A stretch of 63,847 nucleotides of DNA, filler included, from Reticulomyxa filosa (Eukaryota > Protista > Foraminifera): NCBI GenBank assembly GCA_000512085.1. It is 18 parts of 18 records of this genome, joined end to end, with 100 filler letters (N's around TTAATTAATTAA, not from the genome) between each part and the next. Parts side by side here need not be neighbours in the genome. Positions count along the whole stretch, not along the records: positions 28,128 to 49,196 come from ASPP01020041.1; 17 more parts are not named here. The stretch is one strand, 5' to 3'. Made by a program: the position numbers and the translations under genes. Shown one piece after another: positions 8,519 through 60,252 of this stretch; positions within the stretch are counted from its first letter, which is position 1; every line of letters begins with the position of its first letter. The notes under the pieces are model-generated. The model made no database searches and had not been told where the DNA came from. It worked only from the letters and a program-made list of their open reading frames with translations.

Positions 8519-10567
8519 AAAAAAAAAAAACAGGGAAAAAAAAAAAAAAAAAAAAAAAAAAACTTGATTGGTATCCAAAAAATCAGAACGAATAAGTCCT
8601 CGTTGTGCGATTTCTTTTTGAGAAGGCCGCTGTTGAAACTTGCGAATAAAGCTTTTTTTTGCAGTTGCAGCGATTGCCTTTGTTTGTTGATAGCTTCGAT
8701 GGGATTGTCCCAGTATCCCCGAGGGACGATATGCCTGGCCTCCATTTCCTTGGGGTCTATTCTGCGTTGCAAGAACGTGTCGAGCGTTTTCAGCTGCTTA
8801 TGTTGTTGACGTTTGACTTCCGAGTCATTCAAGTACTTGTTTGAATGAAGAGACGATTGATTGGCACTTCGACGGCCGCCCGACTCCACATGCAAGTCGG
8901 CGTCGGCATCGGCGTCCTCGTCACTCGCGTCTTCATCCAAATGTCGCAGTTCAGACACCTGACCGGGCTTTGGTCGCTGCTTCATTTTTTCGCCCAATTG
9001 CGCCGTCACTGCACGTCGATGCTGCTTCTTCGAAGACAGCACTTCCTCGTGGTCCTTGTTGAATTCCTGCTCGTCCACTATCGCCCGCTGCACTATCTCT
9101 TTGCGATTGGGCCGTTCCGACACACGTTGGATCAGTTTATTCTTCAAGGCTGATCGTTCTTCTTTTCGTATCTCTTTTACTTTTTCGTGGTCCTTTTTTT
9201 TTTTTTTTTTTTTTATTAAAAAATATGTATGTATATATATACATATATATTTATATATTTATATATGATAGTAGTAAAAAAAAAAGATTTCACACCTTTT
9301 CAAACTCTTCTTTGTCAACGATGTTCCTTTGAATGGCTTCGTCTTTACCCATTCGTTCACGATACTTCTTCGCAAACTTTTTTCGAATATTCCGTCGTTT
9401 TGCTTTTATTCGATCCACTATTTCCTATTTTTCCATCAAAAAAATACAATACAATGGCTTTTTTTTTTTTCATTGCAAAATATCATTTACACGATATTCT
9501 CTTATGTGTATCACTATAATCTCCTCCCCCTTTTTTTTTAATGTTCCTCTCCCTCCCCCCCGCCCCCCCTTTTTTAGTTCATACCGGGTCACTCAAAGAT
9601 GGCTCCACTAACACTCCTCTTTGAAACAGCTCTTGTGGAGTCGGCCTCGTCTTCAATTCCATCTTTCGCTGGAGCTTCTCTTCGGTGGACAAAAAGTGAC
9701 TTTGCTTTTCTTGCTCTGCGGCGGCGTACTCTTTTTCCGTGTTAATCGTCGGAATGTATTCTGCGGGGATGATCGAACGTGCTGCCATTTCGTTGAGGGT
9801 AATTCGCTGTGCCAACTTCCATTCCAAACGGTCGATGCTTCGACTTCGAGGCTTCAAATGCTTGGCTCGTATCTTGTCTCGACCATTGTGGGTCGACTCC
9901 GCCTCTTTGCCATCGTTCCATTTCTTTTCCTCGGCTTGGCCGTCGTTCGACACGAGCTTGTTATAAAATTCCATAAATTTCAAAAGATCTGTCGCCACTT
10001 CCTTCTGTGGAGATGCACTTATCAAATCTGGAGTTAGTCTCGATTGCAGCGCCGCACGTAACTGCAGGCTTGTTATTCGCCGCTCTTTCGTTTGATTCTC
10101 CATTGAGCCCCACTTTTTATTTTTATTTTTATTTTTTTTTATGTATTGCGTTTTATTTACATATATGTATATTTCATATATGCATATATGAAATATATAT
10201 ATATATATATATACCATATGCACTATGCACTATGCATATGTCTATGTATATGTATATTAGATTTTTTTTTTGCAATTACTAACTTCATCAGAAAATACAT
10301 CACGTGGAACAATATTTCTTTGCTCCAAATCTTGCTGAGAAGGTCGCATTTTTGGATGCAAACGCTGTTCCAGGAGTTGACTAATGCGCTTCTTTTGTTT
10401 TTTTGCTTCGGTCAATTCTTTCTTTTTACGTTTTCGGGGCTCACTTGGGGTTGTCGGAACGCTTGCAGAAAACGTTTGAGTGGTCTACCACACATGCACT
10501 GGGTTACAAGTGATTTTTTTTTTGGACATAGTTCGTTACAGAAAACACTTACTGGTGCTGCACTCAT
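8519..10567 (-). CDS. Multi-RPEL-repeat (G-actin-binding) protein, 3'-partial
   Basis: Spliced model MSAAP|TTQTF... contains RPEL-like units: LHPKMRPSQQDLEQRNIVP, LAQRITLNEMAARSIIP, LKTRPTPQELFQRGVL, YRERMGKDEAIQRNIV, VSERPNRKEIVQRAIV, LQRRIDPKEMEARHIVP. Confidence 0.8.
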
Positions 10568-28992: not shown

Positions 28993-31757
28993 ATGTTGAG
29001 AAAAAGAAAATTGAAAGATGTCTTAACAAATGTGGAAAGTAAAAATGGCAAAGTGCCAGATGTATCAGATTTTATGAGAGAAGAATCGTCAAAGACAGCA
29101 CAGCAACCGTTGGCAAAAAGGCAACGAAAGAGCCAAGAAGAGACTGAAGAAGTTCACCAGAGCCCAGGTTTAGTATGTGTCAATAAATTGCAAAACACGT
29201 TGGATCCCCCTTTGAAAAAAAGAGTATCCTTGATTGTTTGAGGTTAGCTAATTTCTATGGCTTGAAGATTGGTCCTTTTGCATTAACCGCCAACGAGTTC
29301 TATTTGCGATCTTTTTTGGCGAATATGCGCATATATCCTTGTCATTGCAGTATCCTTTAGTTTAGTGTTTACACAACACTTTTTTCATAAAACAACAAAC
29401 AAAAAAGATATTTTTATCACAAAAGTCGACTTTCACTCCCCCTTTTTTTTTTTAATTAAAAAAGTAATAGAGCAAGTGAAGACATACATTTTTTGATTGG
29501 TTTGAAAACTTGGGAGGAAGTAAAGTTGGCAAGTAAATATTTGCAGTCACAAAAACAGCAATGGGCGACAAAGGAGACACAAAACAAGATAAACGTAACA
29601 GTGCTATCAAGTGACAAGATCCGAAATGCACTGCACACCGAATGGCAGGTGAATAAGAAAGAGTCCTTTGAACCGACAAGTTATCTGAAAATCTCAGGAC
29701 TAAAGTCATACGATCCAAAGCAACAAGGCAAAAGTGGTACAGATAGCAAAAAGAATTGGAATGAAGCAATGAGTTTGGAAATAAAGAATTTTGTGTGGCA
29801 ACACTTTAAAGACAATCTCACAGCAATCGATGATATCGAACAAGTGACATTGTTTCCAAACATTTTGAAGCCGCAAATCCACGGCTATGCCTATGTGAAA
29901 TTGAAGACGCCGCAAATGGCCATGGACATTGCCAAGGAGTTTGAGCGGCAATTTCATGCCCGTTATCACGTGAACGAAAAGATGTATCGCAATTGCTTGC
30001 AGGAATGGACAAAACAACAACACCAAATCGAACAGATTGCCGACGTAATCCGACAGCACATACCCTTAACACAGTCTAAATCTGTCGTCGACGACGCCAA
30101 ATCAAGTTTAGCTGCCAAAAAAAAAGGCTGCTCAAGATCAGTCTGCCTTTTGGAACAAAAAATTGGCACATTCCAAACAACGGATTGTTCAACTTCAAAA
30201 TGCACCCATCCCGTGGCCCCCTTCCATCGACTCAGCACTTTTTCTTGTCAATCCCTTTGACAATGCTTTTTGGGTTCAGTTCACTTTTGTGTCCTTTATT
30301 ACTTCAAAAAAAAGTGAGGCAATCTTTTTTTTTTTTTTGTCTTGTTTTTTTGTTTTTTTTTTGGAATTAGTTGGATCAGGCATCTGCTAATGAAATTCCT
30401 GAGTTGACACACCTTTTGAAATACTCGTGTCGACCACTTTTGAATGAGTGTACGAAAGAAATGGAAAACAGTGATCCACTTCGACGGCTTGGTCAAAAAA
30501 CGGGCTCAAACACCGCTTGCTCTTGCTATCATTACATTTTTATTGCAAATGTTCCCTGGTTTTTAGGAAAACAAACGCTGCGCCGCATACTGTTGGAACA
30601 GGAATGCCACTCTGCAAACGCACAACCGTGCGTTCCTATCTTGCATGCTCGAGTATCTGCTTCTTCCACTGGATTCCCTAAAGGGTATGATATCATATGC
30701 ATATTTGATAACATATGTTTATAGAATTATATTATATTGAATGCTATATGTATGCGTATGTATATTGCATATGCTGGAAATAAAATAATCAGATGTGGTA
30801 TGGTTGTTGTTGGATCTAAATCGGGGGCGGATGCACTGTGCAAGCAACTGAACACTATTCCTGTTGATCAAGCTTTGTTGCAGGTACAGTATGCATATGT
30901 GTAGAAGAAATGGGGATGAGTGGGAGAGAAAGAGAAAAAGAAGAGAAAAAAAAAAAAAAAAGAAACAAGATCAATGACATACAACAATTGTTTTGAAGGC
31001 AGTTGTAGTGGACGATGTCACATTGAACGAGAAAGAAAAGTTGTCTCTTGGCTCGTGTAATTCACATGCCACCGACAAAAAATCCAATGATGATCCTCAG
31101 GTTGGGAATGAAAAGATTGGAGACAAGGAGCTACAAAATTGGCTTACCATTCACGGTATATTGATAGCCGATGACGATGGCAATTTGTCCAATCTCAAGT
31201 TTGTTATCTCCTTTTGCTTATACAAATACACATAATAAATATATACATTTATGTGTATAATATGTGTTTATTATATGGTGCGAATGTCACATAGACAAAA
31301 CAAGAACGCTACAGCCGGCGCAAAAACAAAATCAACACAAGCTCTTGGCAAAGAAACTAAAAAGAGCACACAAAAAAAAGTAATAAATGAAATCCTACAA
31401 ACATTAGGAGAAAAAGTTGAAAGTAAAGAGGATGACGAAGAAGATGATGTTGAAGATGATGCTGATACAGAAACTGATTCAGGCTCAGCTTCTCGTTCAG
31501 ATTCAGATGAAAAATCTGAGAAGGGTTCGAATAATGACGATGACAGTGATGGATCTGAAATTGTGATACGTAAAGTACGTTCACGAGATGATCCACCCCT
31601 CATGGTCATTCGAGGAGGTACGTTAAGATATTCTAGAGGAAGAGGAAGTCGATACCAAAAAAATCAAGGAAGAAATCAAGGACAAAAAAAAGCTGTGGGT
31701 AAAGGCAATCGTGGACGAGGAAGAGGCAGAGGAGCTAAACACAGAAAGTCCAAGTAA
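28993..31757 (+). CDS. RRM-domain RNA-binding protein with an acidic region and an RG-rich C-terminus, multi-exon
   Basis: RNP motifs LKISGL/HGYAYVKL and IFIANV/KGCGMVVV. Tail GNRGRGRGRGAKHRKSK. Frameshift at the A9 run 30117-30125. Confidence 0.75.
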
Positions 31758-37700: not shown

Positions 37701-40700
37701 GATCCTCAACCGTCACTACATGCGTTCCTCCGTATGTTTCTGCATCAATACTAATTTGTGTGTAATACGATTATGATACACATAAATTCTTATATACACA
37801 TATATAAACATAAAGTCTATCTCTTTCTTCATTGCTCTTTTAACTCTTTGGTATCAAATGGCAACACTTCCATGTCGTTGAATTCCCACCATTTGCCATC
37901 CGACGACTGGCCATAGGAATAGTAATGTCCACTATTGGCACTGCCGGTGTGCACCAATATACCTACCAATTGGTACTCATAATATTCTGGAGGATGCAAT
38001 GAGGTGAAAGTGTATTGACGTTGGTGTTGTGTCGGTTCGGGAATTTGGTCATTGCCATTGCCATTTCCATTGATTGTGGTGCTTGTTGTGGTCGCTGTTG
38101 CAGTGATATCATTACTGTCAAGATCAGCAGGCATATCATCTTTGGTTTCCATTTCATTCGCATCTTCGGTCGCAATTTCCTCCGGATATTTGGACTCTTT
38201 CTCTTGTCTTTCAATTTCTTCTTTATGTGCCAATCCTTCAGCAGTATATTTTTCCATGTTCAATTCCATTGGAAATTCAAATCTCGAGTTCAACTTGAAT
38301 CTCGCCATCGAATTGAAATCAAATTCAAAGCGCGACAAGTGCAATAACAAGTATTTGGGTAGAGTTTTGAAACATACCCGTCTCAATGCCAATATCTTTT
38401 CATTGCACTGACTGCAGAAATATTTGTTCTCTCCGTCCAACAAATCGCCTTGCACGTATAAATCTAACGATTCCCGCAGATTTGCTTTGTTTTTCACAGT
38501 CAAAGATGCCGTCAAGAATTTCTCTTCGCGCTCACTGCCATGCGTGCATTTATCGTCTTTTGAAATCATTTGATTGACCAAATATCCACCAAAACTATCT
38601 TTAATTGCATCTTTGTGGTCCGTTTTATTCAAGTCGTGTTCCAATTGATCGAACAGTCGATTGCAAAATTCATTGACATCTTGCTGTTCTCCCAAAGGCA
38701 TGGGGTTTCCATCGTAGCCCTTGAATGCCATACACAAGGGCATAGTATCATAAAACTTCTTTTGACTAATACTCAAATGCCCAAACAGCAATTGCATTTG
38801 ATACAATAAGCTATCTTTCGGAAGGATTCCGTGCTTAATTAACTCGACTGATTCTTCATCCAAATCTTCCTGTTTCTGGTCCCCTGAACGCTGCAAGTTC
38901 CCCCCCCCCGTCCACGTATACATACAAAACATATTTGCTATTTGTTTTTTTTTAAAAAAAAAAACAAAAAACAAACAGTATACGTATTTGTATAAAATGT
39001 TAAACTATCAAACGTGCTTCCAAAATATCCTTTGTGAAATTTTCATTGATAAACAACTGCTGCAACAATGAATTCATATAACATGTGGCACCTGGTTTTT
39101 CAAGCCGACGTACCGAATTGGAAATCTCTCTTCGTCAGTGGGATGATATTTCCATGTTGCTTCTTTCAAGTCTCGTGGACGGACATGGAACCAAATGGGA
39201 TCGGAATAAATCAACTTTTGCAACGACATCAGTGTGTCTGGATAAAATGTGGTCAACGAATGCAACAGCGCAAATGCCATTTGTCTGGATTTCACAGCTT
39301 TGCACTTGCTTCCGGGGTTGTTGTGCTGCGGTACATTGAACAAGCAGTCGGCATAGACATATTGGATTAACTCACCTACTGTCGCACTATCTTTGAACAG
39401 GCGATGTGCACTGCACAAACGCAGCAATTTCAGCGTACCGACCAAATATTCATCGGCTTTTTCCGGATCTGTATTGTCTTCCGTCGACACGTATTTTTGC
39501 AACACCTTCACAAACTCCTCGGCGTTGCCTTTCACCTGCGCGGAGACAGCTGTGTCCGCGTCTTTGTACGTGCGACAAACATGGTCAAACACATGTAAAA
39601 ACAATTGAAAGAATTCATCACTTTCTGGTTGTTGAGCATTGCTCATTTTATACACTCGCACCAATTCATTCATCAATCGAATTGATATCGCAACATTCCG
39701 TTTTTTTTTTTTTTTTTTTTTGTAACAAACAAAAAAAATCTGTTTGTTTCATCATAGAGTAATAACAATGTGTGCGTGTGTGTATGTAAGAAGATCATAT
39801 ATGTACAATATATGTGTATATATTATATGAATGTAATGTACTAACGTCAGCCAATGGAACACGTGATAACATTTGCAACGCCTTGCACATTTGTTCTTTA
39901 GTATTTGGATAGTGGTGGTTGAATAGAAGCTTTGTTAACCACTTTTGCAAATCTTTGGTTTTGAATAAAGTGTCGGCATAGGAAGGGAAGGTGCGAATAC
40001 ACCCAACCAAAATGAACATTGATTCCACCAAAATGTTTGCCCCGGCTGGCCCCATATCGTGTTGATTTACATTGAGGATGCTGACAGCGCGATTGACACG
40101 CAACTCCAACTGCCGCAATGGATTGGGCTCTTTGCCATTGGACTCGACCGGCCGTTTCGAGATCGTTTTGTCTGCTTTTTTTTGGTCATCCAATAGGTCG
40201 TGTCCAAGCGCGGATTTGTTTTTCGCAGCTTCACTGCCGGTACTTGGCAAAAGCAGTGTGTTGCCAAGAGCGGAAGAGCGCATTGGTGGATCGCCAATTT
40301 TCACCTCTGGTTCATGTTCGTTGTCATCATCATTGTCATGTGCACTTGGTGTCTTATCACACAAACAAACAAATTAGATTTTTTTTTTAAAAAAAAAAAT
40401 AGTTTCAATTGATATACAAAAATAAAACATAAAAACTTCTGGTTTGATATCATCTGGAGGTATATCTGCCCACTGCAAGATGACATCAGACACTTGCAAA
40501 GTCTTTTTCACCAATTTGTCTTTGTTGTCATTCCATTGTTTGGTTTTGAGGATGCTTCCTTCTGCCAATTTTTTGTCATTGTGTGGAATGACGGATTGGA
40601 ACATTGGCTCCATCGACAATAGCATGCTAATGATTTGAATGCAAAAGGCCAAGCACGAAGCTTTGATCTTACGTCCGACATCAGCTGTGCTGTTATTTGG

Positions 40701-42373
40701 ACTATCATCTTCATTGCCCAAGTCTTTACTCGCCAACGAGTCGGTCATCAGTTCGTCATTAAATAGTAATTCGCAAAGGAAGCCAAACCCACCAAAGTTC
40801 ACAAATCGCGCAATCCATTCGACATGAGTGACATTTCTGTATCTCTGCAGCAAATACTCGGGTCGATATTCTTCTCCAGATATTATCGCAGACAATATTT
40901 GTAAATAATATAGCATTCGATAAGGATCTTTGACATCAAGCAGTTGTGCAAATTGCTCAACATTGGCTTGGAACACCAAATTCAATACCCCTTGCACACG
41001 TCCAAAACTTGGTGGCAATAGTTCCAATATATCCCATACCAACGGCGCAATCTTTGGGTTTTTCAACAGTGGAAACAAGTAGTCATACGCGAGTTGTTCT
41101 TTATTGAAAAGCCGTAATTCGGTTATATGTTTAAAGCCTGTTAATTTTGGATGTTGTGGTGGTTGAGGATATGAGGATTCGATTGGATGAATGTAGCCAT
41201 CGGCAATTGGTTGGTTCATTGTACTATTCAATCAAAACAATTTTTTTTTTTTTTGCATACAAAGTTATATCTTATGTTAAATGCATATACATATATGTAT
41301 ACATATATATGCATATAATGTATATTATAAACTCTCCGTACCATCGTTCAAAATCCCTGACTAAGCTGTATTCAGTTCGGGACACATCTAAAACGTTGCT
41401 TTTATTCCATTCGAAATTGACCAAACGGACGTTATCATTGTTGGATCCAATAATAAATTTGTTCCATCTGATAATCATTTCGCTTTCCACCAATCCGTTG
41501 TGAATGTTATGGAGACGATTGAAAATGGTTTTTCGTAGATTACCAAATGAATCGTTGATTCTCACGACCAACTTGTAATTGGCCAATCGGAAGAATTTGT
41601 GCGGGCGGATTTCCAATTCAACTGTTTGTTTGGTATCCTCCTTTTGCACAAAACACTCCAAAAACGATTTCAATAAACGAATCATGCGTTTTACCACAAT
41701 ACGTCGATCCTCGCTCTGTTTTTCCGTCGCCAACCCTTGAGTCAAAAATCCCAGGCACCGTTGTACGTGTGCTTGGCGAATTTCAAATTGCTCCTTCGAT
41801 TTCAAACGCACGGTAAAATTGAAGTGCAATGCGTTTAATAACTCACTCGCTTGGTTGCCAACAATGGGCAAACGAGCTCGTAATACGACATCCCTTTCAA
41901 TTGCATGTTTTGTTTTTACTGTTGTCACTTGGCTTTTAAATGATATGTATGTATGTGTCAATACTATGCATATGTGTATGTGTGAATATAAGCCAACCAA
42001 AAGTAGTTGCGTCCTTCCAATTGCTGGTAATCGACAATGTGTAAAAGCTTTGGATCGACATAGTGATCATCAGGGTCAATCAAATACGAACTGCCATCTT
42101 CGTTCAACATATCATTGTCTAAACTGGTAATGTATTGTCCTAATACTTCTCGGGCTGCTTCAGTGGGGGACATTGGCGGTACTTTTTTGGAAAGATCTAA
42201 TCTTGGACTTGTCGACGCTGTTTTCCCATTTGTCGCTTGGCGAATCAGGTCTCTCTCTTCAGATGTCGGCAATTTCTTTTTCGTCCCTTTGATCAACAAT
42301 GAGCCATTTCGTTTATTTACTGAGCAGAAAAATGACACTACCAATAGATATCCCGTCTATTTATCAGCCAATA

Positions 42374-42409
<36 letters not shown>

Positions 42410-45400
42410 TATACACATACGTACATAAAGTTCGGAAGAGAACAAACAATCAACATGCCTCTGACAAGTGTGCTGCCGGTAATCTGCAAATGCAATTGTC
42501 AAACAAATACTTTTGGTCTTGGGTTTCATACAGTTTCAATTGTTCCGCATTAGTCAAGGAGGTAACATGTGGCGGAATAGAACCTCGCAATAGCCAGATG
42601 TAACACAGATCCATTTCTTCACGACACAAGGCGCCGGTCACAAAGTGGTCCCAAATTATTTTGTATTGCTCTCGGGTCAATCGCAATGAAGAATGGGTCA
42701 ACAGGTATAACAAAAAATCCAAGCGCGTTTTCAATTGGTCCAAGTATCCATACGAAGATTCATCCACACGCAACGTTTGGACTTCGATATTTTTCTGTTT
42801 GCATTACAACAATTTTTTTTTGTTTAATGTTAGTGGTAATGTGTTCTTCATCTAATCCCTGTGCATATTCGATAATTATATGTGTTTAATACAAAACTGT
42901 CTCTTGATGCAACGTCTGCAATTTGGATGTTACTTTTCCTTTGTAAAAAGTCAAATCTTGCAAAATGTGTTCGACGATGGCAAAGTCTTTTTCCAACTTT
43001 TCAATCATTCCAGCTTGTGTTTCTTGATGCTGTGTAGTGTTGATGCCCAACCATTTCTTCTTGGTTCGAGGATACGTTTGCACTAACTTTTGCAATAGTA
43101 TCATGTTTTGAACCACATTGGAACTTTCTTGGATATGCCAAATACATCTATTCCATCAAAGCAATTCATTGTTGTTATTATGTAATCTATCTATTTTGCA
43201 TTGCAAACGCACTCAACTTTTCAATATATCGAGACTTTTGCGAAGTGGCATATTCTGTCTCCAACAATTCCAAAAACATGTCAATCCTTCTTTGGCAACT
43301 TTTTCTGGAATCAAGCGACCGGCTTTGGTGCTCGTGACTTGATAAAAGAGAAAAAGACACAAGCAAACCCATCGTCAATTAAAACATATATATATATATA
43401 TATATATATAATGTGTGCGCAATGTATATTTACACAGTATATTTAGTTTGTGAATGTTAATCTTACAACCAAACCGTTTTGATTTGCAGCGACATCGGAG
43501 GCTTGCACAAACTTCCAAAGCATTTCCAAGCCAAACAAGTACTTTTCTTTTCGGCGTTGGATCGATCTTTCTGTTGCACTTGATAAGCAGTCAGTGTATA
43601 TATTTTAATCAACTCCAAAAGCTGGCTGTCAATCTGAATATGAGGAGTCTTTTCGATCTGTCGATACAGGTGCCTCAGTTGCGAGAATGACAGCTTGGGA
43701 CATATTTGAGCGACATGTTCATACACCATATGTCGAATGCTCTATCCATTTATTGTGTATTGTTATTATATATGATGTTATGTCATATTGCATGTAGAGG
43801 AGATGTTGTTTTGGTTGGAAATACAAAATAATGCATGTTGATTAATTTCATAGATTCAATCACCTCATGTGTTCCGCCTGTGGTCAGTTTCCATAATGGA
43901 TCCAAGTGTTCTTTGTTGTCGATTTGTTGATTGTGATGAAATAAACGATACATGGGAAGAATTCGGCGCACCAGTTCCAAATGCGTTGTTGTGCGATCCA
44001 AGATATAATCCAATACGCCATTTTTTTTAATCCACTCTTGCATCCACTCCGGCTCTGCCCATATGTTTTTAAATGCTTCCTCCTTTTCTGGACGCAATGC
44101 TTTTGGTGACTATTGATTAACACAGTGTATATGTTTACTTCCAATATTCGTTATTTGTCCTTTTCTGTTGTTTCAACATAAAAGGCAAACAAACAAATAA
44201 ACCTTTTCAGCCTTTTCAGACTTTTCATATTCATTTTTATCAATGACAAGATCAATGTGTTGCATCATCTCGGTCATACCAGCGATTCTCTTTTGTGCAA
44301 AGGGGCAACGAATTTGGCGAAACAAGGCATGGAGAATGACTGTTTCTTTCACTTCCATTATTTTAGATGTATGGCATCTCTGGTATTAAATGAATGGAGT
44401 CATATGTAAACAAGCAAACAAATAAATAAATAAATTAGTAAGTAAATGTATACACATATACATAATATATATGTATATATAAATGTTTTGTGATTGACAA
44501 GTAAATATATTAACATTGTTCATCATGTAATGGACATTCCTCAATACTTTTTCAACAACACCTCGATTTAGAGTCTTCACAATTTCGTCGGGTAGCTCAC
44601 TGCAATAGGATATCAATGATTTGGTTAGTTTCTCAATGCACTCATCGAAATATTCGTCATTAAATAGATCACGTAACTAATTTTATTTTTTTTTTTTAAT
44701 AAAAATATTGAGTTTTTTTTTTTGCAAAATTTAAAAAATAAAAACAAAACTTGTGCGAGAGGTCTTATAATATTGATTAGTTCATTGTGAGTGATTGGAC
44801 ATTGCCCATACTCAATGCGGTCCAAAATCGCGTTAAAGCCTTCAATGTGCCCAAAGTAGTTGATATTGTGCAATCGAAACCAAGAGGCAGATTGACAGGC
44901 CGACGTTTTGCCAACAAATACAAACTCTTCCAAATAAGACTGTTCCGTTTCAAACTCCCAAAGCAATTGTAACTTGGACAGCATGTCCTTGAGTTCCGTC
45001 TCAAACTCTTTGATTCGAATGTCCAATTCGGACATTTCAAGTGAGGTTTCCTCCTTCATTTCCGTTGCGGTAGTTGTTGCTATAGTTGTGGTTGTGGTTG
45101 TTGCTGTTACTGCTGTAGCCGTAGTTGCATTGTCTTTTTGTGTTTGATCCGACAAAGGTTCTTTGGATTCATTCACTTGTGTGGTTTCCACATTCGAATT
45201 AGGTTTGGTCACATTTGCACTTGCATCTGCATTTGCATTTGTATTTGCATTTATATTGTCCACCACAAGGAGAGGATCAGTTGGTAATGTGGTTGTTTCA
45301 TTGATAGTTAATGGGATACTGGCATTGGCGTCGTCAACCTTCTTTATTGCAATCGTACTTTCTCTTACTCGTTTTGTCAATTTTTGCTTTGCAATATCCT

Positions 45401-46760
45401 TCATGTCCTTCGCTTGCCGAAGCACGTCTCGTAACTCGGCTATTTTTTGCACGCTGTTCATAACACCGCCAACCATGCCGTTCGACGTGCGCAGTCAATA
45501 TTTAACAGTTTATTTTTATCAATGTTGTTGTTGTTATTATTGTTGTATTTATCGAATGAAGCAACTTGTGACACAAATACAAACATAAATACAAACGCAC
45601 ATGACAATTTCCCCAATTCCATATGATTCCGGGCTCCATTTCATACTCGCCCCTGGCAGTCCACAGCATTCATAAAATTGCTCGGGTCGTTTGCGATCCA
45701 CTGGCAAAAAGCCAAACAATTTCTCCAATGTTTTAAAGCAAGGGATATCCTGTTTATCCATTCATTTTTATGTGTATATATTTATATTTTATATTTTATA
45801 TTTTATATTTTTTTTTTTAATGGCAATTATGACAATGTATGTAGTTTGCATGTGAACCACTCATTTGGACATGTAAAGAATATTTGACACAAAGTGACAC
45901 CGGCAATATAAATAATAGGAAGGGGGGGAGAGGGAGGGAGGGAAAAAAAAAAAGAACAAGTGGAAAAAAATACGCACCAATTTGATAAGGGCCTTGCAAA
46001 GACGCAGTGACATTTTGAAAAAGCAGTTGATTGCAAATTCACTCGTCTTGGCAGGTCTCAAGTACAGAAAATATTCCAACAAATTCGGCACCATATTCTA
46101 TTGCATAGCAAGTCAATCACATTTCATTTCGCTCACACTTAAAAGTGTTTTATGCATGTTTTTTCATTCCCAATAAAGCCAACTTTATAAGTATATGTAA
46201 ATGTACATAAACATATACATATAAAAAAAAAAAAAAGGGGGAATAAACCAAGAAAAGAAAAAATTGTATACGTAGTATTATATGTTTATTGCAAAAAAAA
46301 AAAAAAAAAAAAATTTGACGCATATGTTCCATAGACATATAACGCAAATATAAATACGAATATGTACAAGTTAAACAAAACAAAAAAAAAAACTAAACGT
46401 TGGCAATATGATCTTGCTGTGGAGTTAACCGTGTTGGACGAGCAAATTTGCCATAATTGGATACATTTTTGTAAGGCAGTGGAAGGGCTTCTAACTCTTG
46501 CAAACAATGTTTAAAAAATTCACAGAAACGGTCCAACAGAGCTCTTGGATCGTTCGTTTGTACAATCAATGTCTGTAGGCTGGTTATTTGATGAGTGCAT
46601 TTTTGACTGTCATTTGTCCACAGCGCTTTTATCTCTTCATTGGATAGATTCCAGCCCTGTCACACAATTACAATCACAATGTAAATTGCAAAACAATTAC
46701 ATGAATATAACACGTGCACAACCCCAACTATCACTTTTTTTTTTTTGCTTTTTTTCGCAT
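34786..46760 (-). CDS. Large ubiquitin-specific protease (peptidase C19, USP9/USP24/USP34 type), many exons; start approximate
   Basis: Cys box VGLKNQ(G)ATCYMNSLLQQLF, QQDVNEF, YFCSQC, LHLSRFEFD, His box LVHTGSANSGHYYSY, WWEFND, NAYMLVYRR, plus a long helical N-terminal region. Confidence 0.92.
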
Positions 46761-47185
46761 TATTGTCAATATAGCTTTTTCTTTCAAAAAAAATATTTGA
46801 ACAGACAAACAGTTCCAACGTCACAGTCTGTTACAACTGAAATAAATGTTATCTATTAACATGAGCCATGGAAAATTCTCAAGAAATTTGATTAGATTGA
46901 TCAAGAATAGAAATCAATACTGAAAAATTCTGAAGTGCTTGCAAGGATATGATTGGAGAAGAATTTCTAAAAATCAAAAGGTCCTTTGTTATATTACTTT
47001 TCCTTCTTTCAATGGCTGGGAAAAAAATAAAAAGTAGTTTTGGGTTTAATAACTTTGTATCGTTCCATCGTCATTTTTTTTTATGTCTTACTGCAAATTT
47101 AGTACATAACCGTGCAGTGTTCCCGTGCAAGGGGGCACAGACCAAATTTTTCAAAATTAAAAAGAAAGCAATCGACTCTCAAGTT

Positions 47186-48850
47186 ATGTCTATGGATGTT
47201 GATCAACCACAACAACCAACTGAACCAAAGCCCAATGACACTGATCAAGACAAAGAAATGGCCGAAAAAGTTGTGAAAGAGGATAAGTCAACGAAGCAAA
47301 AAGAAGCACAGCAAAGCAAGGAGAAAACCCCAACAAAAACGCACAAAGGTCACAGCAAAGATAATAAAGAGAAAGGTGATCAAGGAAAGCAATCCCACAA
47401 GCAAAAAGACAAAGAGAACCGTGGTGGTTCAAGTTCTCGCAGTAGAAGTCATAGCCGAAAGCGAAGCAGCAAACTAGCCACAAGCAAAAAAAAGTGTGTT
47501 TTTTTTTTTTTTGGAAAAAACAACAATCCCGAAATTGCGCAAAAAAAAAAAAAAAGATCATCACACAAGTCACGTGGAAGTGGATCGAGTTCGCGTTCAC
47601 GCAGCCATTCTCGTTCGCATCATATTCGTTATAGTCTGGCGTCGATCAACGACAGTCACAGGTACCGAAAAGACCGTCGAAGAGACCGCAATCGCCACGG
47701 GAACAGCCGTAGTCGCAGCCGCCATCGAAGCCGCAGTAGAAGTAGGAGCAGAAGCAAAAGCAAGAACAGCAGCGGCAGCAGTGCGAGTCGAAGTAGCCGT
47801 CCTTCCAGGTCACACAAGGAAAGAAAAGAAAAAGGACACAAGCATAAATCCAAAGATAAGGAGAAAAACAAATCGAAAACCAGTGACAAAAAGAGAGAGA
47901 AAGACAAGGATAAAGACAAAAGAAAGGAATCAAAAGATGAAAGAAAAGGCTATGACCAAAACGTTACGAACAATGACGCAATAGCAAACTCCAATGGCAC
48001 TTTGGGAAATGAAAAAAATAAAGATGTGAACGGAAGTGACAAACATATGCCCAACTCTTCCAATGGCACAAGTAAAGATAATAAAGACTTGAATAATAGT
48101 TCCAATGCCAATGGTGGTAATACCACAAATAATAGTTCTGCTGGATCTTCTTCCCACGCGCTTCCACATAACCTCTTTAGTGCGGCTGCCAAGCCCGCTT
48201 TGCTGATGCCAAACCCGGCAACTCTTGCTGCCTTTAGTAATCCACTGCTTGGTAGCTTGGCTGGATTGAATATGGCCGCTGTAAACCCCTTTGGGTTAAT
48301 GAACCCTTTGCTCAATCCTCTTTTGTTGCTACAAAACTCCATGGCCAATCCTTTGGCTTCCTTACCCTCCACCGATGGCAATGCCTCAAATGCTCCAATG
48401 CCAGGTTTGTTGTTCGTCTCTTTGTGTTGATGACGCGGCTAGTTCGTTGTTTGCTATGCTTGGAATAGGGGTGGTAAAGGAACAAATGGAAGCAATGTAT
48501 CCACAAATGACAAGACCCGCCAGAAGACTTTATGTTGGAAATTTGCCAATTGATATGCCTTTCACAGAACAAATACTATGTGAATTTTTTACTCAATGCT
48601 GCAAAGGCCTAGGGGTGAAAACACCTAATCCAATATTGTCCATTTGGATTCATAGCGAACGTACGTTTGGTTTTATCGAATTGCGAAGTGTTCGTGACAC
48701 AACACTCTGTTTGTCGTTGTTCGAAGGCTTGCAATTAGGAGGGCGTAATTTGCGCTTTGGTCGGCCCATGGACTACAAATTGCCGAGCGAAGAGCTGCGC
48801 ACCTATTTGGTCCCAGGACCTGATTTAAATGATGAAAAAGATGGTGTGCA
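47186..48850 (+). CDS. U2AF2: U2 snRNP auxiliary factor large subunit (U2AF65-like), 3'-partial
   Basis: RS domain followed by QMTRPARRLYVGNLP...TFGFIELRS...LRFGRPMDY (RRM1). Confidence 0.85.
47494..47556 (+). other. 63-nt GT-AG intron with 5' T14 and 3' A15 arms
   Basis: Removing it keeps the RS-domain frame (AA|A TCA). Sequence GTGTG-T14...A15-G. Confidence 0.7.
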
Positions 48851-49296
48851 AACTTTCTTTTTTTTTTTTTCCTTTTTTTTATCTTTTTTTGTTTGTTTGT
48901 TTTTTTGTGTTTGTATTTTGTCTTTTTGAATATGACTTCACTCCCATGGAAGAGCCTCTAATGAATCCAACAAATTTTAAAAATATTATCGCACAACACA
49001 AACATTAAATATTACTTGCTTTCTTGATTTTTTTTCTTTTTTTGTCATGTCCCCTCGACACTCTTTTTGATCGGTGATGTGCCACTTTCAAAAAAAATTA
49101 TCAACGTAAAATGAAGGAAGAAAAAAAAAAAAGAATTATTTGCACTTAAACAACAACAATGGTTTTTTTTTATTTTTGTTTTTTTTTTTTTTTTTTNNNN
49201 NNNNNNNNNNNNNNNNNNNNNNNNNNNNNNNNNNNNNNNNTTAATTAATTAANNNNNNNNNNNNNNNNNNNNNNNNNNNNNNNNNNNNNNNNNNNN

Positions 49297-50490: not shown

Positions 50491-53454
50491 AAAAAAAAAA
50501 TTGATTTTTTTGTGCTGTATGGATATGTGTCCGTGTGTGTATGTGTAATGTTTGAACAATGCCAGCCTGGAATGGTATACATATTTTCCCATTGGCAACA
50601 GTCATATGACAACACCTGTGCGGACATTTTCAATCGCCATGTCCTCACGTATCGCTATGCGGATGTCCAGTGTACCATAGTCGGCAATGCCAATGACATG
50701 TTGCAAATGAGTAAAACTACATTTGTCAGCAGCTTCACCAAGTTCTTACGCGGGTCCAGCGATGCAATCACCACGTCGCTGACATGGGAGTGGCATTGTG
50801 TACGCTACGAATGGGTCACTCTCGACCAACAGTCTTCTAGGCAAGGATATTGGAACAACTCCCACTCTTGTGACTACTTGTTCCAGCCCACCAATGGTCA
50901 AAGCAGATATAATATTTCTTTTGTTAATGAGTCGGCCTTTCTTGAAAATGGACATATGTACTGGTATCAGTTTAGTGCTTTGGGCTCTTTTTTCGTACAC
51001 GCACACACAATGTATCCCATGTCCTCTGAATAGTATATACACATATGTACATATAAATTTTTATGTTTATACATGTGTATTTATGTATATACATATTTGC
51101 ATATGGACACACACACACATACGCACACAACATTAACGTATGGAAAGATTCTCAATGAAAGTGAGTGATTGGAAGGAAGCCTATCGCAGACCATGTTCGC
51201 AGAGTGTAGCCGTAAAGGTTATCTTGAATGACACTGTTGCAAGCCAATGGCTATCCGTTGCTTTAACAATACCTTCCTCTTCTTCTTCTTCTTCTTCTTC
51301 TTCATCGTCGTCCTCCTCCTCCTCTTCGTACGTCGTTTCCAATGATGCAAGGATTCGCATCCTTGGCAGTTTAGTTGGCACATCCTCTTCAGCCTCCAAT
51401 TACGTGTGCCAATGGCGCGAGCTCAATGGGTATCTCTCCAACCAAAACTTGGCGCTGTATCAAAGCAACACCGACTTATGCTTCAATTTGGTCCTCGACC
51501 CTTCTCTTGTTCCCGCGGTAAATAATGGCAAGTGGATCCAAGGCGCGGTCTATCGCTTCAGCATAGATGTATACACCACCGATTTTTCGAAGCACGGAAC
51601 CGCGACCATCGATATCACAATTGCAAAGTTGCCCACTGTTGTTCCAAATTCCTTTCAGCTTTCGCCACAATGTGGTTCTTTTAATCTTCAGTTCCCTTCC
51701 TAAAAAAAAAAAAAAAAAAAAAAAAAGTAACTTTGTTGTTATGTGTGTGTGATGTACATGCATTTATTTATTTATTAATTTAATACTACGTATATAAACA
51801 AAAGAAAATTCTTATGTATACATTGCACATGTAATGTGATAGATTTATTGAGGATGCATTGAATACGTCCTATGATATGACAGTAAGTAGTGAAACGGAT
51901 GACAGCGACAAAGGACAGTTGGAGTATTTGTATACGTATGTACTGAACAATTCGTCTGGCCAGTACAGAAGCAACTACTCGGAGACTGAACTCCCCTCGC
52001 TGTTTGTTGGGCCTTGGTTTGTGACAAGCAACACGTGGACCAATGTGTTACTACCAATGGTACTCGGCTTGGAGATTCAAGTCGTTGTGAAAAATAAGCA
52101 AACGAATGCCATTGTGTTGGAATCCCAAGCTTGCTTTGGAAAGGACAACAGCAGCAGCAGCAACAACAGCGAATGGAAGTTTAGTGGGTCGATTTGCGAT
52201 TGGCGATTCCGTTTGTTGCAGTTTTTGCAAAACGCCAACACCACATATCGCATCACGGACACAAACACTCGGCTGCAGTTGCTGCAGTTGTATACCAACG
52301 TCATTGTCACCGAATATTGGAACGAACGCATTATTTATAACGCGACGATACAATGCGACCAACGGAAATGGAGTAGACAAAACTTTTGGGAACAAACGCT
52401 GGAATGGTTATACCGAGACATTCAAGAGGTCATGACTTGCGATAATGCGGACTGGTTGGTACCAATGCTGACGCAGACCCTGTCCATTGGCACCTCCTGG
52501 GTCAATTCGCTGAACAACACAAGTTTGCAAAGATGGATTGAATTGATTACGTGGGTGTATGACCCCTGCAATATCTTGCGAAAAGTCAAAGATACCAAAC
52601 AATTGACCGTCAATGGTATGGACATTAGTTGGAGTTAAGTGATTTTTTTTTTATTTTATTTACATTATCTACAAATGCAAAAGTATATGTATAAGTTTGC
52701 TATGATCAAAAATAAAATAGACGGAACAGTGATTACAACAAAATTAACCCCGTTATTGCAAACAACAACGTATGTGGACTTGCTGTTGTATTGCATGGAC
52801 GCTACCTTTGGCTTGTTGCCAAGCGTATCAACAAAATTGCAACAAAATGCGACATCTCCATCTGCAAAGTTGCTTTTGCAAGAGATCAATCAATTGTCCA
52901 TGTTGCTGTTGAACGTCGTATATGTGTCCCAACTATTATTTTTATCCGAGTCTTTGCCATCCGAGTATTTCCTTTGGAACCGATCGAATTTCCAATTGAC
53001 TTCAACTTTATTTGGTCTTTTTTTTTTTTTTAAAGTGTTGAAAATGATAATAATAATAATAATAAAATGAATGACTTTAAATATTACATTTTAAAAAAAA
53101 AGTGGCAAGCAAAGATGTAAATATCGGCGTTGGACAAGGCGTGATAAGTGTGCCAGCATCATTTGCAGGAAGTGAGAAGGACAGCTACTATGTGGTGGCG
53201 ATGGACTACTCAGCGGAAGCGATGCAAGTGAATCAGACGAGCATGAAAGGCAAGTTGTTGTCATCGCAGTCGATAGAAGTGACGATAACCCAAGCAGATG
53301 GCAAGCCGTTGAATACGTCTGTATTAGCACATCCAATTCGCATTAACTTTTCACTGGACATCCCTATCGAGACAGCAACGAATTTGACTTGCGTGTGGTA
53401 TGATTGGAAGAATGAGACGTGGGAGCCGAGTGGATGCCATATCTATCAAAGTAT

Positions 53455-53487: not shown

Positions 53488-55000
53488 GTCTGTCTCTGAG
53501 ACTACAAATCATTGGGTGGTATGTGAATGTTCTCATTTGACCACGTTCAGTTTGCTGCAACAATTCACAACCAATAATAAAAGTAGCTCAGAAACACAAT
53601 TGGCGACCATGGAATACGAGTTGATACACTTGGCCTTTGCGATATTGTTTGGATGTGTATTTGTATATATGGTTGTATTACTACTGCCATTGTATCGACA
53701 AGGAGGGTTGCAATGCTCCACCATGACGCAGGGACTTTTGAACGTGTGTCTGCTTCCACTGCAAGCCTTGTTCCAGATCGCTTTAACATTGGAGTTCTAC
53801 TTGATTGGCTTGCTCAGCAAAAGTCGATCTCTGGACCTCACCACATGCGCCATCATTGCCATCATCATCCTGCTGCTCTCCACACTCCTTTATTTTGTCA
53901 TGCTTTGCATTATTGTATACACCTGGATTATGCTCTCCTCGCCGTTTCGAGGCCACTTTAACCAGAGTCCCCACGCCGGCGGACGACACAAGCATAGCAA
54001 CAGTCTGACCGAATGGCTGGGCGAAACCATTGTCCTGCGTCTCTTCATCATCGTCGCCGTCATGGTCGTGCTCTTGTTCATGAACTTTGCCTTCATCGCT
54101 TTGCGCTTGGATTACGCTTATGTGTGTGGCGAGTACGTGTGGACCATTTATGTCACCCTCTGTGCTTGCATCTTTAGTTATTATGGATACAAAATGGATC
54201 AGACCGTCAGTGGATCTATTTACATGATGAAAAATTTGTGGGAAATGAAACAAGTATGTACAATACACATTATATATATTTACATGTATGTATGCATATG
54301 TCAATGTATACGTGATTATTCATTCATACTCCGAAATATGTGTTTGTAGCAAAGACTCGCAGATGTGATCAATCGTGGCTCGTCGCTGAGTCCGAACGAC
54401 AAGTTGTCACAGCCGCAATTGCAGCTTGAAAATGTCCCCAGCAACAGCGCGCAAAAGACGTTGACAAAGCACTTGAGCGTTCGAAAACGTGGTTTCAGCG
54501 ATGATGCGAATGGGACAATAGATAATGAGAATAATGACGATGGCAATTGTAATTGTAGTGACAGTAACAATAAAACAAGCAATGATAACAAAAAAATAAT
54601 AATAATAATAATAATAATAATCAGTATCCGAAAGGTCGTTCATTGACACAAACATGGTCCTCGGGACACAGCAAACAAAAGTCGTCGATGGACAGCAAGT
54701 CTTTTGTGTCTGTCTTCTCGAGTGAAAAGGACAAAGAGCAGTTCAAAAAAGAAGAACAGGCTTTGGTGCGAACGCGCATTTCCGTCGTCGTAGTCGTGCT
54801 GTTCTTTGTCATTCAGTCGTTCTTGAGCATTTGGAACTTGGCTCATTTGAAGAGCGCCAAGCACATGTTTTCGATGTCTGTCTCCATCCGCGTTATTGAT
54901 CTGTCCTCTCACGCTTTCTTGCTCATCGTTTTGTGTTACATCTATACCGCTCACGTGCGCAAGCGCGTACGCGACCTTGAGCGTCTCAGGGCAGAGTACA
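50491..55000 (+). CDS. REJ/PKD-like ectodomain + GPS (GAIN) + seven-TM adhesion-GPCR-like receptor, partial
   Basis: GPS motif CVWYDWKNETWEPSGC...CECSHLTTFSLL. REJ-like LVLDPSL..GAVYRFSIDV..GTATIDITI. Five hydrophobic helices in 53610-54190 and two more in 54775-54945. Confidence 0.8.
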
Positions 55001-56102: not shown

Positions 56103-56536
56103 TTATCTCCAGACACGAATTAAACCTTTCTCTGAACCATAACATAAGTTAACAATACAATCATCATGATTTTTGTTTATTATCCTTTGTTTTTTTTTTA
56201 ATGATATAAATTTAAGACAATGTATTCCATTATCTTCGTTTTTGTCTCCATTGATCGAAAATAACTCCTTCTTATTTGATCGAATGTCCCAAAAACGAAT
56301 TGAGTTATCCTTTGATCCAGAGCATATCACATTTGAACTACCACTGACTTTGTTTTTTAACACAAATGGTGAATATTCAACAGCCCATACAATATGTTTG
56401 TGTCCATTGAATATTTGAATTTGTTTACCATATCGAATATCCCATAAACGAACACTTTTATCATCTGATCCAGATAATGTTGTGTTTAAACCACCAATAT
56501 TTACTAATTCGTTTGATCCATATTTTATACTATTCA
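56103..56536 (-). CDS. WD40-repeat protein (expanded family), C-terminal part
   Basis: SGSDDKSVRLWDIRYGKQIQIFNGH...ICSGSKDNSIRFWDIRSNKKEL. Very similar to 27593-28027 at the nucleotide level. Confidence 0.9.
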
Positions 56537-58856: not shown

Positions 58857-59475
58857 ATGTCAACAGATAATGATAATGAAAAAGTAAAGCTCCTTCGCGA
58901 AAAATGCAACCACGACGTAAGTGTCTCAATCAGTGTATGATTATCCAAATTTTCGTTCCTACAAAAAAACACACTGATAAAAACAATAGTTGTTGAAATC
59001 AGAAGACGAGTACGTGAACATGTTGGAAGTACTCGTAAAAAATGTCTTCAGACCACTTTATGAAAATAGTGATAAACTTGGACTCAAGCCACAACATGTA
59101 TCAAATTTACAAAAAAAATAAAATTAATAAACAAGAGATTAAAAAAAAAACGTATACCAACAAAAGATGAGAAGAGAATTTTAAAAAAACAAAAAACATA
59201 GGTTCAATTTGTGTACTTGTTCTTGGAGCATATGTTACAATTTCATATGAACTTCTTGTCCGTCATTAACGACGCATTAAACATCGTGCCAGATTTTTCC
59301 AAATACAGCAATTTTGTGCAAATGTACGATGACTATTTGGGAAAATTTGATAGTGTGTTAAAAGTATTTGCCGAGTGGAGATCAATGGAGTTTCGTTCCT
59401 TTGTGAGCTTGAGATTAGAAAATGAAAAAGTCAGGAAACACATCGAAGCTCCTGTCCTTTGCATGCTGCCATGGT
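58857..59475 (+). CDS. RhoGEF (Dbl-homology domain) protein, 3'-partial
   Basis: Spliced LLKSEDEYVNMLEVLVKNVFRPL...|VQFVYLFLEHMLQFHMNFL...FVQMYDDY fits the conserved regions of a DH domain. Confidence 0.75.
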
Positions 59476-59501
59476 ATTCATTTGGACAATTTTTCATATT
59501 T

Positions 59502-59539
<38 letters not shown>

Positions 59540-59639
59540 NNNNNNNNNNNNNNNNNNNNNNNNNNNNNNNNNNNNNNNNNNNNTTAATTAATTAANNNNN
59601 NNNNNNNNNNNNNNNNNNNNNNNNNNNNNNNNNNNNNNN

Positions 59640-59675
<36 letters not shown>

Positions 59676-59677
59676 TA

Positions 59678-60252
59678 ATGGCAGGAGCAGCACAACTGTT
59701 ACAACACAAGCCAACGCCAGAAGAGGAGAACGCGCGAAAATATATGCAATCAGTGAAAAAAGCGCAAGACAAGTGTCCATCGAATTCGAAGAGATACTTG
59801 CATCAGGTGCATTACGTAGTGAACGACAACAATGAAACGGAGGCTTTTTTGGGATGGAGCGACGACATCCCAGCGGCGCATGTTGGACACGCGGTGAGTA
59901 CTGCAGGCAGTTCGGTCGCATTGCACACGATCGCGAAAGAATTGGACATCAACAACAACGCCGCCACCGCCACCGCCACCGCCACCGGACAAGACACGAA
60001 ATTATTGGAGGAAGAGTTGGATCAAAATTCAGCCCAACATCCTAACCCGAACCCCCATGTTCACACTCAACCACTCACACACATGCAATCGCCTCATCAA
60101 CACAAATCTCATCATCAGCAGTCTTCCACCACCCACTCTGACCTGTTGTTCGTGCCTCATCACGACTTTCCTCACCACGATGAAAAGGATGATCATCCAA
60201 AAGAAGCGCTTAACATCACTAATGCATTTGCTAAAGTAATATATACATATAC

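What the first reader, a model, noticed from the sequence alone, without database searches (positions are those of the whole stretch)
47494..47556. Candidate structure-guided splicing system: introns with 5' U-tract and 3' A-tract instead of a polypyrimidine tract, including one in U2AF65 itself
Seen: this 63-nt intron is GTGTG-T14...A15-G, in frame and stop-free. The same polarity occurs at 9193-9295, 44677-44750, 52616-52720 and 53015-53102. Knowledge: U2AF65 normally binds a U-rich tract just before the AG, and in teleost fish complementary AC/GT repeats at intron ends can bypass U2AF2. Inference: a class of introns here may be defined by U:A end-pairing, and this intron could be an autoregulatory retained intron. 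Caveat: other introns in the window are T-rich at the 3' end or A-rich throughout, so it may only reflect relaxed, slippage-prone introns.
Basis: partly seen in the sequence, partly recalled or inferred. Interest (0 to 1): 0.7.

Follow-up and report, generated by a model that had tools for sequence, protein, structure and literature searches.

The report
Foraminiferan introns without a pyrimidine tract
This 63-base stretch is an intron that a close relative's transcripts lack, in an amoeba whose introns mostly end in A-rich rather than U-rich sequence and whose U-tract-binding splicing factor likely lacks one of its two RNA-binding domains, while the proposed pairing of U and A runs at intron ends is likely a by-product rather than a splicing signal.

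Summary
The segment is real and is an intron. The window's protein matches Reticulomyxa filosa RFI_15414 at 99%. Transcript-type contigs of a ~90%-identical relative lack exactly 63 nt there in 2 of 4 runs.

Among 53 hand-curated introns, 5' ends are U-rich, 3' ends are A-rich, and only 3 have a polypyrimidine tract. A paired class is not shown. T>=8 and A>=8 tracts co-occur in 4 introns (2.0 expected, p=0.10), and in 1 of 48 without the five named ones (1.0 expected). True ends pair no better than swapped ends (p=0.47; p=0.03 in the 28 surest). Retention could not be tested; 3 of 53 introns are in frame and stop-free.

The unexpected result is the protein. Its RRM sits in a 58-row clade whose named members are all rhizarians and whose complete members have one RRM plus UHM and no RRM2. 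A second, canonical U2AF65 in these genomes is not excluded. The scan earlier noted tract-less, A-rich acceptors in Bonamia, another rhizarian (unchecked).

The parts
47186..47493 (+). U2AF65-like exon 1 (likely start ATG; K/E/S-rich, start of RS region)
   Evidence: open frame; covered by relative's contigs from 47160
47494..47556 (+). Intron 1, 63 nt, GT..AG, phase 2, in frame, stop-free; no YTRAY branch motif, single AG
47499..47512 (+). T14 tract, positions +6 to +19 of intron 1
47541..47555 (+). A15 tract running into the terminal AG
47557..48404 (+). Exon 2: RS domain and low-complexity N/A/L/P linker; no Trp and no basic-[WF][DG] motif, so no recognisable ULM
48405..48468 (+). Intron 2, 64 nt, GTTTGT..AATAG, U/G-rich, no homopolymer tract
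   Evidence: joint GT..AG in 4 of 4 runs
48469..48843 (+). Exon 3 with the RRM (about 48504-48776), RRM1-like; Q147P, N196T, K225R, R227G, H230M in human numbering
48844..49196 (+). Intron 3 donor (GTGTGC, then T13 and T8 tracts) and unresolved sequence up to the assembly gap; the C-terminal exons are missing from the window
   Evidence: contigs leave the window at 48843 and go on for 579-708 nt in X1-X3
9193..9295 (-). Intron with T10 at +11 and A21-G acceptor (RPEL-repeat gene)
44677..44750 (-). Intron, U-rich start (longest run 6), A11 and A12 runs, AATTAG acceptor (USP gene)
52616..52720 (+). Intron, T10 at +28, AAAATAG acceptor; donor ambiguous (52616 or 52634)
53015..53102 (+). Intron with T14 at +4 and A9-G acceptor
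10113..10283 (-). Counter-example: A10 near the donor and A-tracts at the acceptor, no T tract
59098..59201 (+). Counter-example: intron A-rich throughout (68% A at both ends)
30314..30370 (+). Counter-example: intron T-rich throughout (T14 at the 5' end, T10 at the 3' end)

Best explanation
This is an ordinary GT-AG spliceosomal intron whose U run and A run likely arose separately by slippage on a lineage-wide intron layout (U-rich start, A-rich end, no pyrimidine tract), and that layout likely goes with a U2AF65 that has lost its second RNA-binding domain. Shown: the 63 nt are absent from a relative's contigs; the composition gradient; the lack of a tract; the single-RRM build of complete homologues; a branch-point-like motif enriched near 3' ends. 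Inferred: with only the promiscuous RRM1-type domain, and two uracil-contacting residues changed, U2AF65 no longer selects for a U tract; the 3' site is then found by intron definition over short AG-poor introns, a weak branch motif and an A-A-Y/A-AG end; the 5' U tract is the general eukaryotic donor-side element. Where both ends happen to expand, a weak A:U helix can form but is not needed.
For: 53 introns: first 25 nt after the donor T 43%, A 33%; last 25 nt before AG T 32%, A 43%. Pyrimidines >=70% in the last 15 nt in 3 of 53 (mean 40%, whole-intron 48%); polyT cover peaks at +8 to +17 (0.43-0.45) and is 0.09 next to the acceptor. CTRAY in the 3' window in 8 of 53 against 0 on the reverse strand and 3 in 5' windows; YTRAY 23 against 11 and 15. 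Tracts occur alone: 5 T-only, 8 A-only, 4 both; without the five named introns 1 both, 1.0 expected. T5 and A3 fractions do not correlate (rho -0.12). True ends pair at -5.91 against -5.89 kcal/mol for permuted partners (p=0.47). Runs >=8 are 3.3 times denser in introns than between genes. Intron 2 of the same gene has no tract and is spliced in 4 of 4 runs. Window RRM lies in a 58-row clade, SH-aLRT 98, quick tree without bootstrap; no RRM2 hit between RRM and UHM in 58 proteins, against 82 of 83 plant and animal controls with RRM2; linker under 75 residues in 27 of 51 measurable; the Nonionella model shows one RRM, a helix and a UHM. RRM2 is the U-stringent domain (PMC3616741 abstract); Q147A and R227A each cost about five-fold affinity (PMC4786784 passages). 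5' U tracts occur in 20-40% of introns across 22 eukaryotes (PMC2766253 passages).
Against: 3 of the 4 introns with A>=8 running into the AG also have a 5' T>=8 run. Adjacent runs inside introns are T-then-A 9 times and A-then-T once, but 2 and 2 between genes; a gradient and pairing both predict this. 12 of 17 assembly gaps touch a long run, so tract-rich introns are under-sampled. The 63-nt intron has no consensus branch motif. The window's own C-terminus is missing, so loss of RRM2 in this gene is inferred from its clade. Plasmodiophora has the single-RRM form, yet its few introns seemed to fit the 3' polyT pattern (PMC2483917 passages), so the protein change alone does not give A-rich ends. 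A canonical second copy is not excluded.
Confidence: 0.6

Rival explanations
1. A minority class of introns (under about 10%) is bridged by U:A pairing that brings donor and acceptor together and stands in for U2AF65, as the AC/GT repeats do in fish.
For: 4 of 53 introns have both tracts (odds ratio 3.5, interval 0.56-21); borderline signal in the 28 surest introns; 3 of 4 A-tract-AG acceptors have a 5' T tract; the MFE of 47494-47556 is a 15-bp end-to-end helix, -8.8 kcal/mol at 37 C and -14.6 at 20 C; 44677-44750 and 53015-53102 also fold end to end; the intron lacks a branch consensus.
Against: No excess without the five named introns; no excess over permuted ends in all 53; folding z-scores 0.17, -0.21, 1.74, -0.88, and -2.36 only for 9193-9295, whose centroid is unpaired; the helix would cover the bases next to both splice sites; fish exemplar -99.7 kcal/mol; T11A11-type junctions with no loop also occur mid-intron and right after a donor.
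Confidence: 0.2
2. The A-rich 3' end is a positive signal read by a protein: the single-RRM U2AF65, or another factor, has shifted to A-rich RNA.
For: A is 57% and 68% at positions -5 and -4 and 32% at -3; AATAG, AAAAG and GAAAG make 22 of 53 acceptors; R227G is in 41 of 57 clade members and Q147P in 10 of 11 on the foraminiferan side; tunicate U2AF2-beta has poor U affinity and binds A-rich intron ends (PMC13326754 passages).
Against: Some introns end T-rich (3 of 53 with a full tract); the RNP aromatic residues, R150, N155 and D231 are kept; no binding data.
Confidence: 0.15
3. The intron is a regulated, retained in-frame intron that lets U2AF65 control its own output by inserting 21 residues into the RS region.
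For: In frame, stop-free, no branch consensus, in a splicing-factor gene; a mononucleotide shuffle of its interior is stop-free in only 9% of trials.
Against: Unbroken spliced contigs at depth 17-21 in X1 and X2; 3 of 53 introns here are 3n and stop-free; no stop codon, so no NMD switch; the 3n length depends on unreliable homopolymer calls.
Confidence: 0.05

Closest known systems
Zebrafish (AC)m-(GT)n structured introns (Lin et al. 2016, PMC4691745; abstract, passages and one results part read)
   Same: Complementary simple repeats at opposite intron ends; weak or missing pyrimidine tract.
   Different: There the repeats co-occur and fold very strongly (-99.7 kcal/mol exemplar) and U2AF2 independence was shown; here co-occurrence is not significant, folding is -7 to -12 kcal/mol, and the tract is missing from nearly all introns, paired or not.
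Donor-proximal U tracts bound by TIA-1/TIAR, Nam8 (Gal-Mark et al. 2009, PMC2766253; passages)
   Same: U tract within about 20 nt of the 5' splice site, in 20-40% of introns of most eukaryotes; here polyT cover peaks at +8 to +17.
   Different: Elsewhere it coexists with a 3' tract; no TIA homologue was looked for here.
Displaced polyT pattern of Dictyostelium, Entamoeba, Ustilago and tract-less fungi (Irimia and Roy 2008, PMC2483917; passages)
   Same: No polyT tail next to the acceptor.
   Different: Their peak lies 15-40 nt before the acceptor; here the peak is donor-anchored and the end is A-rich, up to A22. Foraminifera are not among the species named in the passages seen.
Fritillaria borealis U2AF2-beta (Soo et al. 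2026, PMC13326754; abstract, passages, sections 21 and 27)
   Same: Divergent U2AF large subunit in a genome with purine-interrupted 3' ends; binds A-rich intron ends.
   Different: It keeps the canonical domain set, sits beside a conserved paralogue and serves non-canonical termini; the rhizarian form lacks RRM2 and the introns are GT/GC-AG.
Canonical U2AF65 / U2AF2 (TIGR01642; human structures 6xlx, 5ev1, 1o0p)
   Same: RS region, RRM1-like domain, C-terminal UHM in homologues.
   Different: No RRM2 in 58 clade proteins; no ULM-like motif in the window protein, 6 foraminiferan-side proteins or Plasmodiophora, while four other members keep a basic-F-D/G motif; scores below the family cut-off.

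Membership tests
Spliceosomal GT-AG intron | GT..AG ends and removal from the transcript | tested here: met
   Ends in sequence; 63 nt absent from contigs in 2 of 4 runs of a relative. The runs are RNA by the tool's guess and by the GT..AG skip of intron 2; absence of the intron from the relative's DNA is not excluded.
Spliceosomal GT-AG intron | Polypyrimidine tract before the AG | tested here: not met
   A15 precedes the G; 3 of 53 introns have a tract.
Structure-bridged, U2AF2-independent introns (fish type) | Complementary repeats co-occur at opposite ends above chance | tested here: inconclusive
   p=0.10 in 53, p=0.05 in the 28 surest, no excess without the named five.
Structure-bridged, U2AF2-independent introns (fish type) | Unusually stable end-to-end fold | tested here: not met
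   -8.8 kcal/mol, z 0.17; true against permuted ends p=0.47 in all 53, 0.028 in 28.
Structure-bridged, U2AF2-independent introns (fish type) | Pairing needed for splicing; U2AF2 not needed | not testable with these tools
   Needs mutants and depletion.
Autoregulatory retained or poison intron | Measurable retention | tested here: inconclusive
   Only contigs; the tool skips reads in the repeat.
Autoregulatory retained or poison intron | Premature stop on retention | tested here: not met
   In frame and stop-free.
U2AF65 / U2AF2 | RS region and RRM1 | tested here: met
U2AF65 / U2AF2 | RRM2 | tested here: not met
   Absent in 58 clade proteins; this gene's own C-terminus lies in an assembly gap, so inferred for it.
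U2AF65 / U2AF2 | ULM for U2AF35 between RS region and RRM1 | tested here: not met
   No Trp and no basic-[WF][DG] motif in the 403 residues before the RRM; motif search only.
U2AF65 / U2AF2 | C-terminal UHM | tested here: inconclusive
   Present in homologues; not in the window; no R. filosa UHM fragment among 120 listed hits.
Introner elements | Family of similar introns with terminal inverted repeats | tested here: not met
   All-against-all BLAST of 53 introns gave only 19-66 nt low-complexity matches.

The most novel reading that the evidence does not exclude
Rhizaria as a whole replaced the two-RRM U2AF65 with a single-RRM form, so a eukaryotic supergroup with intron-rich genomes recognises 3' splice sites without the pyrimidine-tract code; foraminifera went further, losing the U2AF35-binding motif and drifting to A-rich acceptors, in a subset of which U:A pairing may bridge the ends.
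Probability: 0.35. Interest if true: 0.75.

Novelty: new variant of a known kind. Interest (0 to 1): 0.5.

Why it matters
The U2AF65 tandem RRMs and the pyrimidine tract are held to be ancestral (PMC2483917 passages). A supergroup-wide loss of RRM2, seen here in a genome with tract-less, A-rich acceptors, would be a natural test of which parts of 3' splice-site recognition are dispensable in intron-rich genomes. It is quickly checkable in public rhizarian genomes. It also suggests why gene models of this organism go wrong: the public model of this gene skips part of the RRM and reads through intron 3. The pairing idea alone would be a second case of the fish mechanism and is not supported so far.

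Tried and rejected
No whole genome is held, so all intron counts come from this window. The run search listed no holder on record as RNA; four small-share runs were laid on the U2AF65 gene only, so only two introns and one donor have transcript support. A first protein search at near length found nothing. The first metagenome scan with foraminiferan motifs found no relative among 214 candidate stretches. The second gave 80 loci; of 14 examined, none was a foraminiferan-type genomic locus. L009, a single-RRM gene, has three introns by eye, none with T or A runs or a clear tract, and L007 has a 27-nt intron; too few to count. The Atlas search gave only RRM/U2AF clusters with no useful taxa. A profile search found no R. 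filosa UHM fragment and no rhizarian-named two-RRM protein among 120 listed of 159 hits; this is weak, as the search is word-limited. Two multi-RRM hits looked up had no names. Rows dropped before the intron counts: gene-model introns that are 1-nt frameshift artefacts (Exo1 15524-15579, GPS gene 54564-54634, most PSME4 calls, IFT74 32658-32709), introns with unclear ends (two in IFT74, 29341-29472, U2AF65 introns 3 and 4, the A21-CGG case near 39700) and six half-introns cut by gaps, among them a T13..A16-G end at 26142-26176 that would favour pairing. Curation and the tier split were mine and not blind. Introner origin rejected. Literature searches for a description of foraminiferan intron tracts or of RRM2 loss in Rhizaria found none (passages in PMC3079666, PMC10245619, PMC11347168, PMC13746701, PMC12730881, PMC11069148, PMC6823432). 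Not seen, and may bear on novelty: the 2014 R. filosa genome paper (not opened; subscription journal), Schwartz et al. 2008 (not held), the supplement and figure 2 of PMC10245619.

Full report
Source. The window is a 34.6% GC eukaryotic scaffold of 18 contigs joined by linker gaps. The RRM exon matches NCBI ETO21788.1, RFI_15414 of the foraminiferan Reticulomyxa filosa, at 99%. No whole genome was available.

The intron is real. 47494-47556 is GTGTG-T14...A15-G, 63 nt, in frame and stop-free. Four public runs of a relative, mostly under 90% to 95% alike, were laid on 47150-48900. They skip 48405-48468 at GT..AG in all four runs, so they behave as spliced RNA. In X1 and X2 a single contig aligns to 47477 and again from 47573 with 32 letters between, where the window has 95. 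The missing 63 nt match the segment, and the 32 letters match the two exon flanks of 16. The tool skips reads inside the homopolymer stretch, so the joint itself and any retained form were not seen, and the intron could be absent from the relative's DNA. The contigs leave the window at the next donor, 48844, and continue for 579-708 nt; those exons are not in the window.

Intron set. I predicted genes with a codon model and a strand-symmetric non-coding model that has no tract term, then curated by reading frame and protein continuity. This gave 53 complete introns, 28 with both ends firm; median length 102 nt. The curation was not blind, and dropped rows are listed under Tried and rejected. 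Protein motifs used to judge continuity in Exo1, the USP and the RhoGEF-like gene are partly recalled; Pfam supports Exo1 (XPG_N), the USP ARM repeat, RPEL, PSME4 and WD40.

What the introns show. The first 25 nt are T 43%, A 33%; the last 25 nt are T 32%, A 43%, pyrimidines 42%. The gradient holds in 38 of 51 untied introns (p=7e-4) and in 29 of 46 without the five named introns and the site cores (p=0.04). Only 3 of 53 have 70% or more pyrimidines before the AG. PolyT cover is highest 8-17 nt after the donor and lowest beside the acceptor. Acceptors favour A at -5 and -4; AATAG, AAAAG and GAAAG make 22 of 53. A CTRAY motif lies in the 3' window of 8 of 53 introns against 0 on the reverse strand, so a weak branch signal exists; the 63-nt intron lacks it.

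Test of pairing. With T>=8 in the first 30 nt and A>=8 in the last 30 nt the table is 4 both, 5 T only, 8 A only, 36 neither: p=0.10, odds ratio 3.5 with interval 0.56-21. Thresholds of 5, 6 and 7 give p=0.08, 0.26 and 0.37. True end pairs are no more stable than permuted ones in all 53 (p=0.47). In the 28 surest they are (p=0.028) and the table is borderline (p=0.05), but that set holds four named introns and a (TA)n intron. The reverse arrangement, 5' A>=8 with 3' T>=8, never occurs, as expected from the gradient. The 63-nt intron folds into a 15-bp helix of -8.8 kcal/mol, no better than shuffles (z 0.17; -14.6 at 20 C); the zebrafish exemplar is -99.7 (PMC4691745). All-A introns (10113-10283, 59098-59201), all-T introns (30314-30370) and tract-free introns (48405-48468, same gene, spliced) occur side by side. 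Against this, 12 of 17 gaps touch a long run, so tract-rich introns are under-counted. A minor paired class stays open.

Retention. Three of 53 introns are 3n and stop-free. Retention would insert 21 residues into the RS region without a stop. Homopolymer lengths are doubtful: several exons carry 1-nt frameshifts at short runs (read), and the public model implies other T-run lengths in intron 3 than the window shows. No support for autoregulation was found, and no proper test was possible.

The protein. The closest homologues have an RS region, one RRM1-like domain, a low-complexity linker and a UHM. In a tree of 164 RRM domains from the top hits, the window's RRM falls in a clade of 58 rows, all single-RRM, SH-aLRT 98; this is the quick tree, 98 columns, no bootstrap, and hits without a UHM and with one RRM were left out. 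Of the 28 clusters looked up, the named members of this clade are Reticulomyxa, Nonionella, Amorphochlora, Norrisiella, Paulinella and Plasmodiophora; the M6MM cercozoan protein is close but lacks the UHM and was not in the tree. An RRM2 profile finds nothing between RRM and UHM in 58 proteins, while 82 of 83 plant and animal controls have RRM2; the linker is under 75 residues in 27 of 51. The AlphaFold model of the Nonionella protein has one RRM (298-376), one linker helix and a UHM (461-550), both domains at pLDDT about 90. In human U2AF65, RRM2 is the uridine-stringent domain and RRM1 the promiscuous one (PMC3616741 abstract), and Q147 and R227 contact uracils (PMC4786784 passages). The window has Q147P and R227G; R227G is in 41 of 57 members and Q147P in 10 of 11 on the foraminiferan side. 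The window protein has no ULM-like motif before the RRM, nor do 6 foraminiferan-side proteins or Plasmodiophora, while four other members keep a basic-F-D/G motif. Limits: this gene's C-terminus is unseen, a canonical second copy is not excluded, and Plasmodiophora introns were reported, on few examples, to look like the 3' polyT type (PMC2483917).

How it likely works. The spliceosome likely defines these short, AT-rich introns across the intron: a GT or GC donor with a U-rich stretch behind it (a general feature, PMC2766253), a weak branch motif, and an AG in an A-rich context. With RRM2 gone there would be little selection for a U tract at the 3' end. Slippage then lengthens U runs near donors and A runs near acceptors, and in some introns both. 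I put this at 0.6, a functional paired subclass at 0.2, protein recognition of A-rich ends at 0.15 (precedent in tunicates, PMC13326754), and regulated retention at 0.05.

Novelty. The intron is a new example of a known kind, and the pairing system is not shown. Tract-less A-rich acceptors in a foraminiferan and the single-RRM U2AF65 of Rhizaria were not found in nine searches of the open library, but the genome paper and Schwartz et al. 2008 were not read. Earlier, unchecked notes of this scan describe A-rich, tract-less acceptors in Bonamia, another rhizarian, which fits a lineage-wide change and not a pairing class.

Noticed in passing
window 42357-42458 (-): GC-AG intron (donor GCATGT) in the large USP gene; the frame and recalled similarity to USP9X/24-type proteins need the GC donor.
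   Followed up: partly
window about 39701-39845 (-): Intron in the USP gene that seems to end in A21-CGG with no AG; either a sequencing error after the A run or a non-canonical acceptor. Left out of the counts.
   Followed up: no
window 35736-35825 (-) and 60236-60331 (+): Two more in-frame, stop-free introns, one with an internal A13 and one mostly (TA)n.
   Followed up: partly
window about 15526, 30117, 39092, 43270, 43541, 54590 and 21646-25600: 1-nt frameshifts in Exo1, an RRM gene, the USP gene, a GPS/7TM-like gene and many in the PSME4-like gene, often at short homopolymers; likely assembly errors, PSME4 possibly a pseudogene.
   Followed up: partly
window 46660-47185: About 500 nt between the divergently transcribed USP gene (-) and U2AF65 (+): likely a shared promoter region.
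   Followed up: no
window 26142-26176 (+): Gap-cut intron end T13-AATTT-A16-G directly before the Walker B motif exon of an ABC transporter; motif identity recalled.
   Followed up: partly
window 59474-59673: A donor followed by T33, an assembly gap, then A33-G and an exon; probably two different genes, so not counted as one intron.
   Followed up: no
window, all 17 gaps: Every gap is N44-TTAATTAATTAA-N44, an artificial linker with stops in all frames; 12 of 17 touch an A or T run of 8 or more.
   Followed up: yes
window, donors of 53 introns: Donors are very degenerate, T is commonest at +3 and +4 (51%, 53%), GTAAGT occurs twice; like the GTT donors noted earlier in Bonamia. U1 and U6 snRNAs were not examined.
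   Followed up: partly
L007:718-745 and L005 about 408-429: Very short (27 nt, and possibly 21 nt) GT..AG introns in single-RRM U2AF65 genes of unnamed organisms.
   Followed up: no
proteins P0025, P0029, P0043, P0046, P0066, P0106 and others: Many unnamed U2AF65-like proteins carry two RRM1-like domains in place of RRM1 and RRM2, suggesting other lineages replaced RRM2 by duplication.
   Followed up: no
window 56106-56534 (-) and 25700-26040 (-): Fragments of a WD40-repeat family with similar wording, one degenerate; likely members of an expanded repeat family.
   Followed up: no
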